Shown piece by piece: positions 7,153-60,639 of a DNA stretch of 64,000 bases; the stretch's first letter is position 1, and each line of letters starts with the position of its first letter. The DNA lies in sequence record MK295204; one strand, 5' to 3'. The notes beneath the pieces are model-generated. The model made no database searches, was not told the DNA's origin, and saw only the letters and a list, made by a program, of their open reading frames with translations. Source of the stretch: Shigella phage vB_SdyM_006. The position numbers and the translations under genes are program-made.

Positions 7153-7173
7153 AAGAGGTCTTGTAAACCTCTT
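7153..7173 (-). terminator. putative intrinsic terminator hairpin
   Basis: aagaggt-cttgtaa-acctctt followed by T/A-rich runs on both strands; intergenic after dexA stop. Confidence 0.4.
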
Positions 7174-9183: not shown

Positions 9184-9473
9184 ACTATTTTCACCCTTTT
9201 AACATAAAGTGTATCTAACATTCTCTTATAGAGTGTCGTCAAATATTCCGGTTTGTTGATTATTGTTTTTTCCTCTCGTTTAAACCAAAGGAATCGATGA
9301 TATTTTATATTGTATTTTGGTTTAAGCTCTTTAGAAAGATATTCTTTAAAACGTTTAAAGGCCTCATTAGAGAGACCTTTTGTTTTATATATCATTAGAA
9401 CTTGAGTATCAGGGTCTTGACATATAACATCAAATCCTGAAGAGTCTTTGTAGACTATCGCATAATAATACAT
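9180..9473 (-). CDS. hypothetical protein (dda.1 position)
   Basis: 97 aa, ATG start, ATGA overlap with dda. Confidence 0.35.
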   Translation of the reverse strand: MYYYAIVYKDSSGFDVICQDPDTQVLMIYKTKGLSNEAFKRFKEYLSKELKPKYNIKYHRFLWFKREEKTIINKPEYLTTLYKRMLDTLYVKRVKIV

Positions 9474-10089
9474 AAAGTTCTTTTCCTACTCTTTTATAAG
9501 AAGAATCTAATGAAATACCTAAATATAATTTTAATTTATCTAATTTAGATAGCTTATTAAATCTTTCTCCAGACTTAATAATAGTTTTTAATATACTAAT
9601 ATCTTTATCTTTAGATTTAACACATTTTTTATATTCTTTATTAAGACGTTTCATTTGCGCTTCTTTTAATCTAACAGATTCTGCTAATTGTTTATCATTT
9701 GGACAACACGCTAAACGCTTTTTAAGTTGGTTCAATTTTATTTGAGCTCTATCAAGTCCAGCTTTTGTTGTCTCTTTTGAGTTTTCACGTGATTTAATTA
9801 TAGCTTTAAGACCTTCTATATCTCGGTCGCCTTTATATTGATTATAAATTCCTTTGATAGGAATAACATTCCCTTTAACATAACCTTTGGAATTATCGAA
9901 TCGTTCAAAAGTAAGAGCATTCGGGTCATTTCGTTTAAATGACACAGAAATCGGTTCATCTGAATAAGCACACTTTGTTTGCTCACAAATATTTTGAACG
10001 TATCGCTTGGATAAATTAAACTCTTTATTGCGGGCTTTAGCAGACTGTTTTAAGTGCTTGAATTTACTACTTAATTGTTTAGAATCCAT
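9430..10089 (-). CDS. hypothetical protein, basic, coiled-coil C-terminus
   Basis: 219 aa, ATG with strong AGGAGG Shine-Dalgarno; occupies the srd/modA/modB region of T4 but no ART or sigma motif recognised. Confidence 0.4.
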   Translation of the reverse strand: MDSKQLSSKFKHLKQSAKARNKEFNLSKRYVQNICEQTKCAYSDEPISVSFKRNDPNALTFERFDNSKGYVKGNVIPIKGIYNQYKGDRDIEGLKAIIKSRENSKETTKAGLDRAQIKLNQLKKRLACCPNDKQLAESVRLKEAQMKRLNKEYKKCVKSKDKDISILKTIIKSGERFNKLSKLDKLKLYLGISLDSSYKRVGKELYVLLCDSLQRLFRI

Positions 10090-36287: not shown

Positions 36288-36483
36288 TATATTTCCATTC
36301 AAAATCAAAATAAATATTAAAATCCTCTATAGTATAGAAATAAGAAAACTCTCCCTGTTCAACAGAGATTGTCTCATCATATACATTAGTCGGATCAATT
36401 AAAACTGGTATATTGTACTTCTCTTTTAATAGAAGCTTAATAAGATATGGTAATGCATTTATATCGTTATATTCTTCAATCAT
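36280..36483 (-). CDS. hypothetical small protein
   Basis: Full track ORF (to 36588) overlaps gene 55 by >100 nt; internal ATG at 36483 avoids overlap; weak call. Confidence 0.2.
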
Positions 36484-37024
36484 CGGGGTTAGATTGAGTT
36501 TCTGCTTTAAGTAATTCATAAAAATCATCCAATGTCGGTCCTGTATCATCAGCCTTTTTTGACCCGCTAGATTTAACAGAACTTTCATAAGAGTTTAATT
36601 TATCATATATGTCTTGTATAAACGTTTCGTCTGCAATTTGAGATAAATCTGTATCAAATTCATCATAAACGTTATGGACAAAGTAGCTATATTTTATTGC
36701 CATTTCTTTTCGTTCTTTTTTAATACGCTGAACAAATGCATTAAAACAAGCCTTAGTGATGTAAGCATGTGGATTATTATATTTCTTCTCATCAAAGCCA
36801 TATAAACCTTTTATAGTAGCTTCAATACCGTCCCAATACATTTCTTGTTTCCAATCAGGTGTATATCCAGAAAAGTTATAACGATAGGAAAGGCCTTCAG
36901 CTATAAGCATAATAGCGCGTCCAATAGAATCAGGGATTTTTACCTGATAACCAGCATCATAACAGTCTTGTTTCCACTTACAAATTTCTTTATATAATTC
37001 TTTATTGTTAATATAATTATTCAT
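36476..37024 (-). CDS. 55: late-transcription sigma factor gp55
   Basis: Start moved from TTG to ATG at 37024 (GGAGG Shine-Dalgarno 6 nt upstream); [22 protein letters not shown]...[24 protein letters not shown] matches remembered T4 gp55. Confidence 0.85.
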
Positions 37025-37073
37025 CAAGAACCTCCAAGTTAATTATATACAAAAATAATATTTTGCATTTGCA

Positions 37074-37096
37074 ATCAAGGAGCTGCGCTCCTTGAT
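37074..37096. terminator. GC-rich perfect hairpin with T-run on plus strand only
   Basis: atcaaggagc-tgc-gctccttgat (10-bp stem) followed by atatttttattatttt on plus strand; on minus strand no U-run follows. Confidence 0.35.
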
Positions 37097-37129
37097 ATTT
37101 TTATTATTTTATTAAGTTCTTTATATATT

Positions 37130-37232
37130 ATATATAACTATTAAGTAATAAATTAGTAACTCTAGTAAATTAATTTATTAAAAGTCTAGTATATTCTATA
37201 TAACTATTAAGTAATAAATTAATAACTCTATG
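37130..37232. repeat. two ~34-bp direct repeats (1 mismatch) spaced ~67 bp in intergenic region
   Basis: tatataactattaagtaataaatta[g/a]taactcta at ~37131-37164 and ~37197-37230; minus-strand reading contains GTTACT...17 nt...TATATAAT-like sigma70/T4-early promoter elements. Confidence 0.6.
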
Positions 37233-37235
37233 TTA

Positions 37236-38657
37236 CTATTTTCTGGTATGTTCTATCCAGTCTTTTACTATTTTTTGATCTTCTATATTATCAGGGTCTA
37301 ATTTTCTACCTAGTTTTCTTAGAAGATACATATAACGATATTTTTCTTTAGTAGTCATTTCGTATTGTTTTTGAAATGATAATCGCTTTCTTGTTTGTTT
37401 TGCTTTAGGAACTTCTAACATGTAATCAGTACAGATAGTAGCATTTTTAAAATACTTATCTTTTATATACTTTGCTAATCTCATATCAGGAACAAATAAA
37501 TTAACTTTTTTATTGCTTTTATTGACCCGGATATTAGTTCTTGCACATAATTGAAAAGCCGGTTCAAGATATTTTGATACTATATAAGCGTTAACTAATT
37601 CATCTTCTTCTAACCCTGCTGATATAGCAAGTTCTTTTAGTATAGGAATTTGCCATGGTAATGGGTTAAAGCTAAACATGACTACAACGTTCCTATAATC
37701 CGTATAGGAGTTTAATCCATGTGGGTTATATGGAACTTCAAGTCCTTTATTAAAACGCGCCCTGTATGAATTCCTGGTGTATATAAATGGCTCATCTCCA
37801 ATTAACCCGTCAAGAATATTTTTGATTCTGGAATAATTGGTTAAACCATCAATTTCTTTATCAGCATTATGTTTAGACCAAGAATTTTCAAACATAACGT
37901 TTATTTGGATTCTTGAAGTATTAGAATATTCTTTAAATACGAGTTTATCTTCTAGAGGTGATTTAACAAAATCCCATTTGTTAAAATATTTTAGAATTTT
38001 ACCAGTAAAAGTGTCTTCTATATTTGCTGCAGAAATAGTTACTTTATCAAAAACTTCCCAATCTTTACTAGACACGTCATTAATAAAATAGCATGTTGCG
38101 CCAGATTCCGTTTTAGATATTTTTGTTGGAATACCTTGTAATAAAGCTTTGTATAAAGGGAGTAAACTCACACAGATATCATCTAATTGGTTAATACCCT
38201 GTAATGCAAGTTCTTCTATTTCTTCTTTATATTTTTCATCTAAAATAAGATCTGATAATCCATCACTTATAGGAAGACAATATTTAAGGATTTCTTCTAA
38301 ATTATGAGAAAACGTAAATTTATTAAATGACACTAATTCTGGGACTTCATCAATATATAGACTAAATCCTTTGAACTTACTAAAATCCGTAATTGATAAC
38401 AATGCAGAATGAGTTATAAACAAAACATCTGCTTGTGTTTCTTCAATAGCTTTATTAACAGACTTTGAGCCAAGTTTATTGTCAGAATCAATTAATACCC
38501 CTTGTCCGCCCAACGAGCAAAAATAATCAAAGGATTGCTTAGACAAAAGCCTCGATATCGAGGCTATAATTGATTTTTCTTTTTTATTGACAATATTTTC
38601 TACAATGGCTTTAGTCTTTCCAGCAGCTGGAATTGCTTTTAAGACTTCAATTTTCAT
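37236..38657 (-). CDS. P-loop NTPase (Walker A and B), function unknown
   Basis: 473 aa; KAIPAAGKTKA Walker A near N-terminus, LYIDEVPE Walker B; no counterpart of this size remembered between nrdH and 55 in T4. Confidence 0.45.
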   Translation of the reverse strand: MKIEVLKAIPAAGKTKAIVENIVNKKEKSIIASISRLLSKQSFDYFCSLGGQGVLIDSDNKLGSKSVNKAIEETQADVLFITHSALLSITDFSKFKGFSLYIDEVPELVSFNKFTFSHNLEEILKYCLPISDGLSDLILDEKYKEEIEELALQGINQLDDICVSLLPLYKALLQGIPTKISKTESGATCYFINDVSSKDWEVFDKVTISAANIEDTFTGKILKYFNKWDFVKSPLEDKLVFKEYSNTSRIQINVMFENSWSKHNADKEIDGLTNYSRIKNILDGLIGDEPFIYTRNSYRARFNKGLEVPYNPHGLNSYTDYRNVVVMFSFNPLPWQIPILKELAISAGLEEDELVNAYIVSKYLEPAFQLCARTNIRVNKSNKKVNLFVPDMRLAKYIKDKYFKNATICTDYMLEVPKAKQTRKRLSFQKQYEMTTKEKYRYMYLLRKLGRKLDPDNIEDQKIVKDWIEHTRK

Positions 38658-40209: not shown

Positions 40210-40231
40210 CAAAAAGGACCCGAAGGTCCTT
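40210..40231 (-). terminator. intrinsic terminator hairpin (identical to 4674-4694 element)
   Basis: aaaaaggacccgaaggtcctt; U-run on minus strand; upstream of nrdG start. Confidence 0.6.
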
Positions 40232-42956: not shown

Positions 42957-43423
42957 TTTAAAGATTTCCTTAAAGCTTTTTTGTATCTTTTAGTTAACTC
43001 GGTTTTTGTATCTGTTTCTAGATATTCAAATCCGTGTAATACCATTTCTTCTATCATTTCTTCTTTAGACAACCGAGAAAACTCTTTAGATTTGTCTATT
43101 ATATACTGTGGATGGATAGGATTTTCACTGCTGTCTTTTTTTAAGTAAAATAAAAGGTTCTCCATCCAATTAATATATTCTACTTTAGATTTTAGTCCTG
43201 AACGATTAAATTTATGCTTCAACTGTCCTTCTGCTGCATTACATAAAGGGCATAATAATCCACGAACTCTTCCAGCTTCAGGACCAGATAACGCATGGTC
43301 ATGGTCCAAATGATTTTTTTGAACATCTTTATCTAATTCTAAACGACAAATACAACAAAGGCCCTTTTGGGCCTTATATAATTTTTCTTTTTCTTGTTTA
43401 AATGATTTTCCGGATAATAACAT
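42953..43423 (-). CDS. 49: recombination endonuclease VII gp49
   Basis: 156 aa; GLCCICRLELD...NHLDHDHALSGPEAGRVRGLLCPLCNAAEGQLKHKFNRSGLK closely matches remembered T4 endo VII. Confidence 0.85.
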   Translation of the reverse strand: MLLSGKSFKQEKEKLYKAQKGLCCICRLELDKDVQKNHLDHDHALSGPEAGRVRGLLCPLCNAAEGQLKHKFNRSGLKSKVEYINWMENLLFYLKKDSSENPIHPQYIIDKSKEFSRLSKEEMIEEMVLHGFEYLETDTKTELTKRYKKALRKSLK

Positions 43424-60163: not shown

Positions 60164-60639
60164 TTTGTGTCTCCTTTAATTTCATCAAGAAAGTCAAAAT
60201 AAGCGTTAGGATAAAACAATAGAATAAATGGTGTCATTGCTAGCCCAATAGAATACAATATCATACTCAATAAATCTGTAGAATAATGTATAAAGAAAGG
60301 CCAAACTATTAAAATATACATCATTATCATAAAAATAGTGTTCATCATATAAATATTGGACAATTTATGCGGTACACTGTAATACCCGTTTTGGTATCTA
60401 TTGTTATTATTACTTAATGAAATTACAATATCACCTACCGTCTCTTTATCGAAACCTAAATTTATTGTTTCAAACATGACAAAGAGTCCTAAAACTATAC
60501 AACTTATTAAAAATAATAATGAATATGCAAACCCTGCTCCTGTGTTTGCCCACATATCAAATGAGAACAATGTATTTCCAGATAACACAAGTAAAAATAT
60601 AAAGACAACTTTGTTGATTTGAGATAATAAATAATTCAT
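60160..60639 (-). CDS. hypothetical polytopic membrane protein
   Basis: 159 aa; several hydrophobic segments. Confidence 0.35.
   Translation of the reverse strand: MNYLLSQINKVVFIFLLVLSGNTLFSFDMWANTGAGFAYSLLFLISCIVLGLFVMFETINLGFDKETVGDIVISLSNNNNRYQNGYYSVPHKLSNIYMMNTIFMIMMYILIVWPFFIHYSTDLLSMILYSIGLAMTPFILLFYPNAYFDFLDEIKGDTK

What the first reader, a model, noticed from the sequence alone, without database searches (positions are those of the whole stretch)
37074..37232. Intergenic region with two 34-bp direct repeats and a plus-strand-oriented terminator hairpin
Seen in sequence: a near-perfect repeat (one mismatch) spaced ~67 bp, each reading on the minus strand like a GTTACT-N17-TATATAAT early-type promoter, so possibly tandem promoters for gene 55. 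Next to them is a 10-bp GC-rich perfect stem followed by a T-run only on the plus strand, although all flanking genes are on the minus strand; it could stop antisense transcription or be an RNA processing/structural element.
Basis: seen in the sequence. Interest (0 to 1): 0.4.

Follow-up and report, generated by a model that had tools for sequence, protein, structure and literature searches.

The report
Repeated promoter-hairpin cassette before gene 55
The two repeats and the hairpin upstream of this T4-like Proteus phage's late sigma factor gene are one of four genome-scattered sites of a conserved promoter-plus-terminator cassette; here its terminator has lost the signal that would stop transcription into the gene.

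Summary
There are two 34-nt repeats, one mismatch apart and spaced 66 bp, which extend to 62 nt. There is also a perfect 10-bp hairpin (37074-37096) with a T-run on the + strand only.

The window is a Bragavirus, a T4-like Proteus phage. The region is the 211-bp spacer between a conserved 473-aa ORF and gene 55.

The repeats are not private to gene 55. They are two tandem copies of a cassette with these parts:
- an invariant box, TTAYTTAA-N3-TTATA;
- a -10-like TAKAAT;
- an A-rich tract;
- a GC hairpin.

The cassette occurs 8-10 times per Bragavirus genome, always at four junctions (ORF473|55, 2|3, 25|uvsY, 35|36) and always pointing at the downstream gene. Gualtarvirus and Muldoonvirus have it at the same four sites. 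Copies within a genome evolve in concert.

At sister loci the hairpin scores as a bidirectional terminator. At gene 55 the sense U-tract is missing in every genus, and an invariant leader with its own -10-like element follows.

Best reading (about 0.6): tandem promoters without a -35 requirement, plus a read-through hairpin, in a variant of PeSL (promoter-early stem-loop) cassettes. The + strand "terminator" is the leftover half.

The GTTACT -35 is not conserved, and no source of antisense transcription was found.

Minority reading: these are promoter-plus-unwinding-element replication origins. The cassette is the least stable duplex in the 64 kb.

The parts
37236..38657 (-). Upstream gene: a 473-aa conserved ORF with an N-terminal P-loop (weak DEAD/DEAH match). 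Its stop codon defines the 5' edge of the intergenic region.
   Evidence: 241 phage records hold a homologue; PF00270, E 5e-4, below the curated cut-off
37166..37235 (-). Cassette copy B (upstream copy). It contains GTTATT, the box TTACTTAATAGTTATATA (37214-37197), the -10-like TAGAAT (37198-37193), and then ATACTAGACTTTTAATAAATTAAT.
   Evidence: the same B-type unit precedes gene 3 directly, and lies upstream of uvsY, in phiP4-3 and Pm5461
37097..37165 (-). Cassette copy A (downstream copy). It contains TTTACT/GTTACT, the box TTACTTAATAGTTATATA (37148-37131), the -10-like TATAAT (37132-37127), AAGAACTT (37121-37114), and an A-rich tract (37113-37097). The A-rich tract is the complement of the + strand T-run.
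   Evidence: 37097-37136 is the least stable 40-mer duplex of the window; the A-tract is the most variable part among five Bragaviruses (11 of 17 columns, plus indels)
37074..37096 (.). GC-rich hairpin (10-bp stem, 3-nt loop). It is the gene-55 variant of the cassette terminator. It has an A-tract 5' and no U-tract 3' on the sense (-) strand, and a U-run on the + strand.
   Evidence: stems invariant and loop variable; sister copies score as bidirectional terminators; compensatory stem changes among loci and genera
37025..37073 (-). Invariant gene-55 leader. It contains the TTGCAAATGCAA repeat/palindrome (37073-37062), TGCAAAA-N13-TATAAT as a proximal promoter-like element (37067-37042), and the SD GGAGG (37035-37031).
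   Evidence: 0 of 49 columns vary among five phages whose flanking genes differ by 3-13%; many T4-like phages have a MotA-box/TGnTATAAT promoter at the equivalent position; the pattern occurs 2 times on the - strand and 0 times on the + strand in the window
36476..37024 (-). Gene 55 (late sigma factor). The ATG at 37024-37022 is preferred over the TTG at 37027 because of the SD spacing.
   Evidence: annotated as late sigma transcription factor in relatives

Best explanation
The two repeats are the cores of two tandem copies (types B and A, 66-bp period) of a dispersed promoter-stem-loop cassette.

Cassette anatomy (shown): an invariant box TTAYTTAA-N3-TTATA abutting a -10-like TAKAAT, then 25-45 nt of A-rich leader, then in many copies a GC-rich hairpin.

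Distribution (shown): the cassette sits at four fixed junctions (ORF473|55, 2|3, 25|uvsY, 35|36) in Bragavirus, Gualtarvirus and Muldoonvirus. It is always co-oriented with the downstream gene. Its copies are kept alike within a genome by recombination.

Promoter function (inferred): each copy is a sigma-70-type promoter that does not depend on a conventional -35. It may be helped by a factor that reads the box. It gives pre-late transcription of genes that lie behind or inside late clusters.

Hairpin function (inferred): the hairpin is the cassette's intrinsic terminator or attenuator. At sister loci it has an A-tract 5' and a U-tract 3', so it is bidirectional. At gene 55 the sense U-tract has been replaced by the invariant gene-55 leader. 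Transcripts from the tandem promoters can therefore read through, at most attenuated, into gene 55. Gene 55 also keeps its own proximal promoter-like element (TGCAAAA-N13-TATAAT).
For: Identity and synteny.

Repeats and hairpin are real.

The box plus a hairpin is conserved upstream of gene 55 in four genera, although the flanking protein is only 62-76% identical.

The box occurs at exactly four loci in each of Pm5461, MP1, Muldoon, PS2 and phiP4-3, and its strand flips with the gene strand. BLAST finds 8-10 places per Bragavirus genome. The Pm5461 annotation identifies the loci as 2|3, 25|uvsY and 35|36.

In Muldoon and PS2 the box lies between a terminator hairpin and GGAG-N9-ATG of gene 3. 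That leaves room for a start about 7 nt after TAGAAT.

Hairpins lie 24-46 nt after the box in 22 of 35 copies. In Bragavirus, T counts in the 10 nt after the stem are 5-7 at non-55 loci and 2-3 at gene 55. In the other four genomes examined, the 10 nt after the gene-55 hairpin hold 4-5 T and form no clear U-tract.

The same scan calls the sister hairpins terminators on both strands and the window copy on the + strand only.

Stem covariation: 98% of cells are paired and 7 of 8 pairs change on both sides.

Concerted evolution: the gene-55 and gene-36 dimers are 96.4% identical within phiP4-3, and Pm5461-specific variants are shared among its loci.

Purifying selection: the stems and the 49-nt leader are invariant while the flanking genes differ by 3-13%.

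T4 has hairpin-TTTTTCTTTATAAATA at 35|36, so that terminator plus late promoter is ancestral and the cassettes were added upstream of it.

The PeSL concept is described in PMC2839356 and PMC4122927.
Against: No transcription start or 3' end has been mapped.

The consensus scan does not score the box as a sigma-70 promoter, because no acceptable -35 sits at 16-18 nt. Several overlapping TA-rich hexamers could each serve as the -10.

At 35|36 the cassette is followed at once by a terminator and a late promoter, so there it expresses no gene. That hints at another or additional function.

The cassette precedes late genes (3, 36) as well as pre-late genes (uvsY, 55), so its timing class is unclear.

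The covariation test is partly circular, because the hairpins were picked as perfect stems.

Read-through of the gene-55 hairpin is inferred only from the missing U-tract.
Confidence: 0.6

Rival explanations
1. The cassettes are replication origins of the T4 oriF/oriG type. [quoted passage not shown] The A-rich transcript stays annealed as an R-loop and primes leading-strand synthesis. The GC hairpin/terminator bounds the element. On this reading, gene expression from the cassette is secondary.
For: T4 minimal origins are about 100 bp, made of a promoter plus an A+T-rich DUE (PMC3016281).

One cassette locus (25|uvsY) is the exact site of T4 oriF, whose downstream tract is likewise A-rich.

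The 2|3 and 35|36 loci lie about 3 kb from T4 oriE and oriG.

37096-37235 is the least stable duplex of the whole 64-kb window at every window size tested (z up to 5.3). The cassette is also the local stability minimum in 12 of 12 Bragavirus and MP1 loci.

At 35|36 the cassette transcript is terminated after about 50 nt and serves no gene.

The four sites are spread around the genome (about 38, 70, 114 and 150 kb of 162 kb).
Against: Only one of the four loci coincides with a T4 origin, and gene 55 is not near any T4 origin.

T4 oriE and oriG primer RNAs run antisense to the local genes, unlike these cassettes.

At uvsY the homologue of the T4 oriF promoter is the separate proximal TGGTTATAAT, not the cassette.

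Low duplex stability follows trivially from a TA-rich promoter sequence. It holds in only 4 of 8 Muldoon/PS2 loci.

There are no replication data.
Confidence: 0.15
2. There are two ordinary early promoters (GTTACT-N17-TATATAAT) for gene 55, plus a dedicated + strand terminator whose job is to stop antisense transcription entering from the gene 55 side.
For: GTTACT/GTTATT lies 17 nt before TTATAT in Bragavirus and MP1. The + strand hairpin plus T-run meets terminator criteria. The A-rich tract is retained upstream of the gene-55 hairpin in all genera.
Against: The proposed -35 is not conserved in Muldoon, PS2, PSTRCR_121 or Cronus, although the box is.

The genuine early-type promoters of this phage are GTTTACW-N17-TAYWAT.

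The only TATAAATA on the + strand is at 60348, downstream of the hairpin. Sigma-70-like hits occur at chance level (89 found against 85 expected).

The A/T-run is the least conserved part of the region, and it is present in every cassette whatever its context.
Confidence: 0.1
3. The cassette is mainly a recombination or mobility module, a selfish or neutral repeat spread by gene conversion. Its box is a protein-binding or crossover site rather than a promoter. The hairpin is merely the carried-along gene-35 terminator.
For: Concerted evolution occurs among loci. Muldoon and PS2 copies at uvsY and gene 36 carry a copy of the gene-3 leader. The sister hairpins share TTTCTTTAGAAA with the 35|36 terminator. 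RB49 PeSLs recombine within the stem-loop (PMC2839356).
Against: The same four loci are kept across genera that differ by 24-38% in the neighbouring protein. The 15 specified bases of the box are fully conserved, and orientation relative to the genes is strict. These features indicate selection for a directional function. The -10-like hexamer is positioned correctly before the SD of gene 3.
Confidence: 0.1
4. A cis-antisense small RNA starts at promoter-like hexamers inside the first codons of gene 55 (+ strand, about 37005 or 37024) and ends at the + strand terminator. It would cover the gene-55 SD and start codon and repress translation.
For: The + strand carries TTTCCA-16-TATAAT (36971-36998) and TTTATA-17-TATAAT (36989-37017). 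A good + strand terminator lies 80-100 nt downstream.
Against: The hexamers come from N-Y-I and L-Y-K codons. They are absent from the gene-55 5' ends of MP1 and Muldoon, although the hairpin and A-tract persist there. Promoter-like hits occur at chance frequency in this AT-rich DNA.
Confidence: 0.04

Closest known systems
PeSLs (promoter-early stem-loop cassettes) of T4-like phages RB49/phi1, PST/T4 and nt-1/KVP40 (Arbiol et al. 2010, PMC2839356; Comeau et al. 2014, PMC4122927)
   Same: Both are short intergenic composites of a promoter and a stable stem-loop terminator/attenuator. Both end at the SD/ATG of the downstream gene, are repeated within one genome, have lineage-specific consensus sequences, and show signs of recombination between copies. 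In Muldoon the stem-loop sits just upstream of the box, as in PST PeSLs.
   Different: There are only four sites, all at conserved core junctions shared by several genera, not dozens in hyperplastic regions flanking ORFans. There is no near-consensus -35/-10 pair; instead an invariant box abuts the -10. The stem-loop is usually downstream of the promoter. Copies are tandemly duplicated. Promoter and terminator activity and mini-circles are untested here.
T4 replication origins oriF (uvsY) and oriG (gene 34): middle-mode promoter plus downstream unwinding element (Kreuzer & Brister 2010, PMC3016281)
   Same: Both are about 100-bp units of a promoter followed by an A+T-rich, easily melted tract with an A-rich non-template strand. 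One locus (25|uvsY) is identical in position to oriF. At 35|36 the cassette makes only a short non-coding transcript.
   Different: T4 origins share no common sequence motif, whereas these four sites share one. There is no canonical MotA box at 12+/-1 nt. The gene 55 site has no T4 counterpart. The 2|3 and 35|36 sites are about 3 kb from oriE and oriG and have the opposite transcript orientation.
Bidirectional intrinsic (rho-independent) terminators
   Same: The sister copies have a GC stem with an A-tract 5' and a U-tract 3', and score as terminators on both strands.
   Different: The window copy keeps only the antisense U-run. On the strand that is actually transcribed into gene 55 it lacks the U-tract.
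The gene-55 middle promoter of T4 and relatives (MotA box plus TGnTATAAT, often inside a covarying stem-loop)
   Same: The proximal element TGCAAAA-N13-TATAAT lies at the same place before the gene-55 SD. A hairpin is associated with the gene-55 promoter region across T4-like phages.
   Different: The box is TGCAAAA, not TGCTTTA. The Bragavirus hairpin lies upstream of the promoter instead of enclosing its -10.

Membership tests
PeSL (promoter-early stem-loop cassette) | Composite of a promoter-like element and a stable stem-loop within about 100 bp of intergenic DNA, ending at the SD/ATG | tested here: met
   Box plus TAKAAT, then a hairpin 24-46 nt later in 22 of 35 copies, followed by an SD/ATG or a second copy
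PeSL (promoter-early stem-loop cassette) | Several near-identical copies dispersed in one genome | tested here: met
   8-10 BLAST places per Bragavirus genome; 8 exact boxes at 4 loci in both Pm5461 and phiP4-3
PeSL (promoter-early stem-loop cassette) | Sigma-70-like -35 and -10 hexamers with about 17-nt spacing (TTGACA/TTTACW ... TATAAT/TAYWAT) | tested here: not met
   The consensus scan does not call the box. The TTTACW-N17-TAYWAT regex misses it although it finds 7 others on the - strand. The candidate -35 GTTAYT is absent in four of the genomes.
PeSL (promoter-early stem-loop cassette) | Preferential location in hyperplastic regions next to ORFans and indels | tested here: not met
   All four sites are junctions of core genes (55, 2/3, 25/uvsY, 35/36) and are conserved across genera
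PeSL (promoter-early stem-loop cassette) | Recombination between copies | tested here: met
   Indirect evidence: 96.4% identity between non-orthologous loci within a genome, and lineage-specific variants shared across loci. Mini-circles are not testable here.
PeSL (promoter-early stem-loop cassette) | Measured promoter and terminator activity | not testable with these tools
   Needs reporter fusions or transcript mapping
Intrinsic terminator acting on the - (coding) strand, as annotated in the Pm5461 and MP1 records | U-rich tract immediately 3' of a GC-rich stem on the transcribed strand | tested here: not met
   The 10 nt after the stem are TGCAAATGCA, with 2 T. The scan calls the + strand only.
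Intrinsic terminator acting on the + strand | GC-rich stem-loop followed by a U-run | tested here: met
   10-bp stem with 5 GC pairs, tail ATTTTTATTA; -16.8 kcal/mol, z -4.5
Intrinsic terminator acting on the + strand | Transcription arriving on that strand | tested here: inconclusive
   No TATAAATA on the + strand below 37074. Only chance-level sigma-70-like hits. No RNA data.
T4-type R-loop origin (oriF/oriG) | Promoter followed by an A+T-rich unwinding element | tested here: met
   Least stable duplex of the 64-kb window (z up to 5.3); the local minimum in 12 of 12 Bragavirus and MP1 loci
T4-type R-loop origin (oriF/oriG) | MotA-dependent middle-mode promoter (TGCTTtA 12+/-1 nt before the -10) | tested here: not met
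   The box TTACTTAA lies 8 nt before TAKAAT. The TGCTTNA pattern shows no strand bias in the window (4 against 4). MotA homologues do exist in PS2 and PSTRCR_121.
T4-type R-loop origin (oriF/oriG) | Synteny with a mapped T4 origin | tested here: inconclusive
   The uvsY locus coincides with oriF. The 2|3 and 35|36 loci are about 3 kb from oriE and oriG. The gene 55 locus has no counterpart (PMC3016281).
T4-type R-loop origin (oriF/oriG) | Origin activity (autonomous replication, R-loop, initiation peak) | not testable with these tools
   Needs wet-lab replication mapping
Described RNA families (Rfam 15) | Covariance-model match at or near the gathering score | tested here: not met
   Best hits have E of 1 or more and lie far below the gathering scores

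The most novel reading that the evidence does not exclude
The four cassette sites are the replication origins of these phages. They would be R-loop origins built from a shared promoter box plus an extreme unwinding element bounded by a GC hairpin. Unlike T4, whose origins share no motif, this clade would then have a recognisable origin consensus that is homogenised by recombination. The copy at gene 55 would couple origin firing to expression of the late sigma factor.
Probability: 0.15. Interest if true: 0.75.

Novelty: new variant of a known kind. Interest (0 to 1): 0.45.

Why it matters
It turns a local curiosity into a genome-wide regulatory element. One conserved box marks four fixed junctions in at least three genera of T4-like phages, where pre-late and late transcription units abut.

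If the box is a promoter read without a -35, it defines an unrecognised promoter class, or a box-reading activator, in phages that have diverged MotA homologues. It would also explain how uvsY, gene 1/3 and gene 55 are expressed from inside late clusters.

The natural series of hairpins with and without a sense U-tract is a ready-made experiment on how a bidirectional terminator becomes a read-through element.

If the sites are origins, they would give T4-like phages their first shared origin motif.

It also corrects database annotation: the Pm5461 and MP1 records call this hairpin a coding-strand terminator in front of an essential gene.

Tried and rejected
1. T4 itself as a guide. T4 has only about 35 nt between 55.1 and 55, and no equivalent element.

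2. Rfam. Nothing meaningful was found.

3. T4 early-promoter and MotA-box regexes. The repeats fit neither. TGCTTNA-N11-13-TAnnnT shows no strand bias in the window, and neither do relaxed variants.

4. A third box copy inside the 473-aa ORF (37581-37599, 1 mismatch). It drifts with synonymous changes in SJ_PmiM and is absent in Pm5461 and PM2, so it is a chance resemblance.

5. Small ORFs in the spacer. There are none of 30 aa or more. The 9-codon ATGCAAAAT... frame has no counterpart in other genera.

6. Leads from published papers. The Morganella Mecenats66 "preferred pac site" paper concerns an unrelated 86-kb phage. The MP1 paper, searched for these terms, gives only counts of MEME-found promoters and predicted terminators and no description of the cassette; the promoter features in the Pm5461 record are 7-8 nt long.

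7. A Cronus-specific box search. It found only the gene-55 copy, so the four-locus pattern is unconfirmed for Roskildevirus.

8. The other roughly 100 IMG/VR hits to the 15-base pattern. They lack the flanking cassette features and are chance matches.

9. Long-range pairing of AAGAACUU (37121-37114) with the SD region AGGUUCUU, seen in the MFE fold. It is invariant within Bragavirus, AAGAACTT belongs to every A-type copy, and other genera show no counterpart. It is left as unverified.

Full report
**What the window is.** The window is 31% G+C. The region matches Proteus phage phiP4-3 at 96%, and other Bragavirus genomes (SJ_PmiM, PM2, Pm5461) at 88-91%. Of the ORFs of at least 90 aa, the few on the + strand overlap longer - strand ORFs. 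The finding lies in the 211-bp spacer between a conserved 473-aa ORF (37236-38657) and gene 55, the late sigma factor (36476-37024). The ORF has a P-loop and a weak DEAD-like match, and homologues in 241 phage records.

**Observation.** Both features are real.
- The repeat is a 62-nt, 84%-identical tandem pair with 66-nt spacing.
- Its 34-nt core occurs only at 37131-37164 and 37197-37230 in the 64 kb, with 0 and 1 mismatch. None is expected by chance.
- The hairpin at 37074-37096 has a perfect 10-bp stem and a 3-nt loop.
- It folds at about -16.5 kcal/mol on either strand, z -4.5 to -5.8.
- The scan classes it as a terminator on the + strand only.

**Local conservation.**
- Across five Bragaviruses whose flanking genes differ by 3-13%, the hairpin stems are invariant and only the three loop bases vary.
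- The 49-nt leader from the hairpin to the start codon has 0 variable columns.
- The A-rich tract, which is the + strand T-run, is the most variable segment: 11 of 17 columns vary, plus indels.
- The leader contains TGCAAAA-N13-TATAAT (37067-37042) and the SD GGAGG.
- In many other T4-like phages gene 55 is preceded at the same place by a MotA box plus (TG)nTATAAT, often enclosed in a covarying stem-loop.
- Gene 55 therefore probably has its own proximal promoter, independent of the repeats.

**Other genera.** Upstream of gene 55 in Providencia PSTRCR_121, Morganella MP1, Serratia Muldoon and Erwinia Cronus there is a single copy of ATTAYTTAA-N3-TTATATA-[G/T]A. It is followed 24-36 nt later by a GC hairpin whose stem sequence differs but still pairs: CTGGAGC/GCTCCAG, CTGGGCC/GGCCCAG, CTGAGAGC/GCTCTCAG.

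**The key result: the box is not private to gene 55.**
- An exact-pattern scan of IMG/VR found the box at exactly four loci in each of Pm5461, MP1, Muldoon and PS2. It is usually doubled in Pm5461 and MP1.
- A more specific pattern showed the same four doubled loci in phiP4-3, the window's closest relative.
- BLAST with the window's cassette finds 8-10 places per Bragavirus genome.
- The Pm5461 annotation identifies the other loci as gene 2|gene 3, gene 25|uvsY and gene 35|gene 36.
- The cassette always points the same way as the downstream gene, on either DNA strand.
- In Muldoon and PS2 it is all that lies between a terminator hairpin and GGAG-N9-ATG of gene 3. This fits TAKAAT as a -10, with a start about 7 nt later.
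- Only the gene-55 pair lies inside the 64-kb window.

**Two cassette types in Bragavirus.**
- Type B reads box-GAATATACTAKACTTTTAATAAA.
- Type A reads box-TAATATATAAAGAACTTAATAAA(A-rich)-hairpin.
- Gene 55 and gene 36 carry B then A. uvsY and gene 3 carry A, hairpin, then B.

**The hairpin belongs to type A.**
- At the uvsY, gene 3 and gene 36 loci it is (T)CTGG(G)AGC-nnn-GCT(C)CCAG(A), flanked by AATAAAAT... on the 5' side and (A/T)TTTCTTTAG on the 3' side. The same scan calls it a terminator on both strands.
- At gene 55 the outer stem has changed with compensation (CAAGGAGC/GCTCCTTG) and the 3' flank is TTGCAAATG.
- In Bragavirus, T counts in the 10 nt after the stem are 2-3 at gene 55 and 5-7 at the sister loci. 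In the other four genomes examined, the 10 nt after the gene-55 hairpin hold 4-5 T and form no clear U-tract.
- Across 15 distinct hairpins, 98% of cells pair and 7 of 8 pairs change on both sides. The caveat is that these hairpins were selected as perfect stems.

**Origin of the cassette layout.** T4 has hairpin-TTTTTCTTTATAAATA between genes 35 and 36. That terminator plus late promoter is therefore ancestral, and the cassettes were added upstream of it.

**Concerted evolution.**
- The 137-nt dimers at gene 55 and gene 36 are 96.4% identical within phiP4-3. That is as close as orthologous gene-55 dimers between phiP4-3 and the window.
- Pm5461-specific variants (ACTATAC, AATAGTTTACTATAGTTATT) are shared by its different loci.
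- The N3 of the box is TAG in all Bragavirus copies, TCC (once TTC) in MP1, and GCC in Muldoon and PS2.
- Muldoon and PS2 copies at uvsY and gene 36 even carry the gene-3 leader.
- This is the behaviour described for PeSL cassettes, which recombine with one another (PMC2839356, PMC4122927).

**Mechanism proposed.**
- Shown: the anatomy, the dispersal to four fixed loci, the strict orientation, the conservation, the concerted evolution, and the difference in U-tracts.
- Inferred: each copy is a promoter that does not need a conventional -35. The hairpin is its terminator or attenuator. At gene 55 the loss of the sense U-tract lets the tandem promoters read into gene 55, alongside the proximal promoter. 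The + strand "terminator" is then the surviving half of a bidirectional terminator rather than a device built against antisense RNA.
- I found no source for antisense RNA. The only + strand TATAAATA is at 60348, and sigma-70-like hits are at chance level.

**Promoter class is unresolved.**
- The box is not the phage's T4-type early promoter, GTTTACW-N17-TAYWAT, which occurs 7 times on the - strand and once on the + strand.
- It is not a canonical MotA box.
- MotA homologues of 42-47% identity exist in PS2 and PSTRCR_121.
- At MP1's gene 36 locus the cassette has acquired a near-consensus late motif, TATAAATT. This suggests that the generic cassette is not itself a late promoter.

**Minority reading: replication origins.**
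- T4 oriF and oriG are about 100-bp units of a promoter plus an A+T-rich unwinding element (PMC3016281).
- The 25|uvsY site is exactly where T4 oriF lies, and oriF's downstream tract is also A-rich.
- The cassette at 35|36 makes only a short terminated transcript.
- 37096-37235 is the least stable duplex of the whole 64-kb window at every window size tested, with z up to 5.3. The same holds locally for 12 of 12 Bragavirus and MP1 loci, but for only 4 of 8 Muldoon and PS2 loci.
- Against this: only one locus matches a T4 origin. T4 oriE and oriG lie about 3 kb away from the 2|3 and 35|36 sites and have antisense primers. The true homologue of the oriF promoter at uvsY is a separate proximal element.
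- I give this reading about 0.15.

**Comparison with known systems.** The closest family is PeSL.
- Features met: a composite of promoter-like element and stem-loop, dispersal within a genome, and recombination between copies.
- Features not met: consensus -35/-10 hexamers, and location in hyperplastic regions next to ORFans.
- I therefore call it a PeSL-like variant, not a member.
- As a coding-strand intrinsic terminator, which is how the Pm5461 and MP1 records annotate it, the gene-55 hairpin fails the U-tract criterion.

**Verdict.** The element is a new variant of a known kind. It is of moderate interest, and higher if the origin reading or a new box-reading factor is borne out.

Noticed in passing
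window 37236-38657 (-): The 473-aa ORF upstream of gene 55 has an N-terminal P-loop (AAGKTKA) and a weak, sub-threshold DEAD/DEAH match. It is conserved next to gene 55 in 241 T4-like phage records (RB43, RB49, Aeromonas 25/Aeh1 and others) but is absent from T4. Its function is unknown.
   Followed up: partly
L014-L066 (upstream of gene 55 in other T4-like phages), e.g. L018, L020, L038, L047: Gene 55 is widely preceded by TGCTTTA plus (TG)nTATAAT, at 11-14 nt spacing in some phages (mostly 12-13) and 22-23 nt in T-evens. An inverted repeat often brackets the -10 and covaries (GGTCC/GGACC, GATCT/AGATC). In some phages its 3' arm includes the SD. This suggests that read-through transcripts hide the ribosome site while promoter-proximal transcripts do not.
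   Followed up: partly
window 37121-37114 and 37033-37026 (-): The MFE fold pairs AAGAACUU, just after the type-A -10, with AGGUUCUU, which covers the gene-55 SD and spacer. This would hide the ribosome site only in transcripts from the cassette. It is invariant in Bragavirus, and no covariation is available.
   Followed up: partly
window 37073-37062 (-): TTGCAAATGCAA is both a 5-bp palindrome (TTGCA/TGCAA) and a tandem TGCAAA repeat. It sits in the -35/-30 region of the proximal gene-55 promoter-like element and is invariant in five phages. A similar TTTGCAATA-N12-TGATATAAT occurs at 33025-33000 (-). This may be the local version of a Mot box.
   Followed up: partly
window 62022, 51896, 48255, 44874, 26469, 10145, 7167 (-): T4-type early promoters GTTTACW-N16-18-TAYWAT occur 7 times on the coding strand and once on the other strand. 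The one at 7167 overlaps a stem-loop (AGAGGTTTACAAGACCTCT), as in PeSLs.
   Followed up: no
window 43358-43375 and 40214-40231: AAGGCCC-nnnn-GGGCCTT scores as a terminator on both strands. AAGGACCTTCGGGTCCTT-TTTGG is a classic UUCG-tetraloop terminator on the coding strand downstream of nrdG.
   Followed up: no
window 9505-9644: This is the second least stable duplex of the window (z about 4). It lies inside or at the edge of a 219-aa ORF (9430-10089). It was not examined.
   Followed up: no
L107-L109, L068-L070 (Muldoon, PS2): Cassette copies at uvsY and gene 36 carry the gene-3 leader (CCTGGAGTGTAATAAA, that is SD plus spacer) without a following ATG. This is a footprint of copying from the gene-3 locus.
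   Followed up: partly
L088 (MP1, 35|36 locus): Both cassette copies at this late-gene locus read TTATATATAAATTATAT, which embeds TATAAATT (7 of 8 of the late-promoter consensus). MP1's copies at other loci do not. The cassette appears to have been adapted locally to late transcription.
   Followed up: no
window 37022-37027 (-): The mechanical ORF call starts gene 55 at a TTG (37027). The adjacent ATG (37024), 6 nt after GGAGG, is the likelier start.
   Followed up: yes
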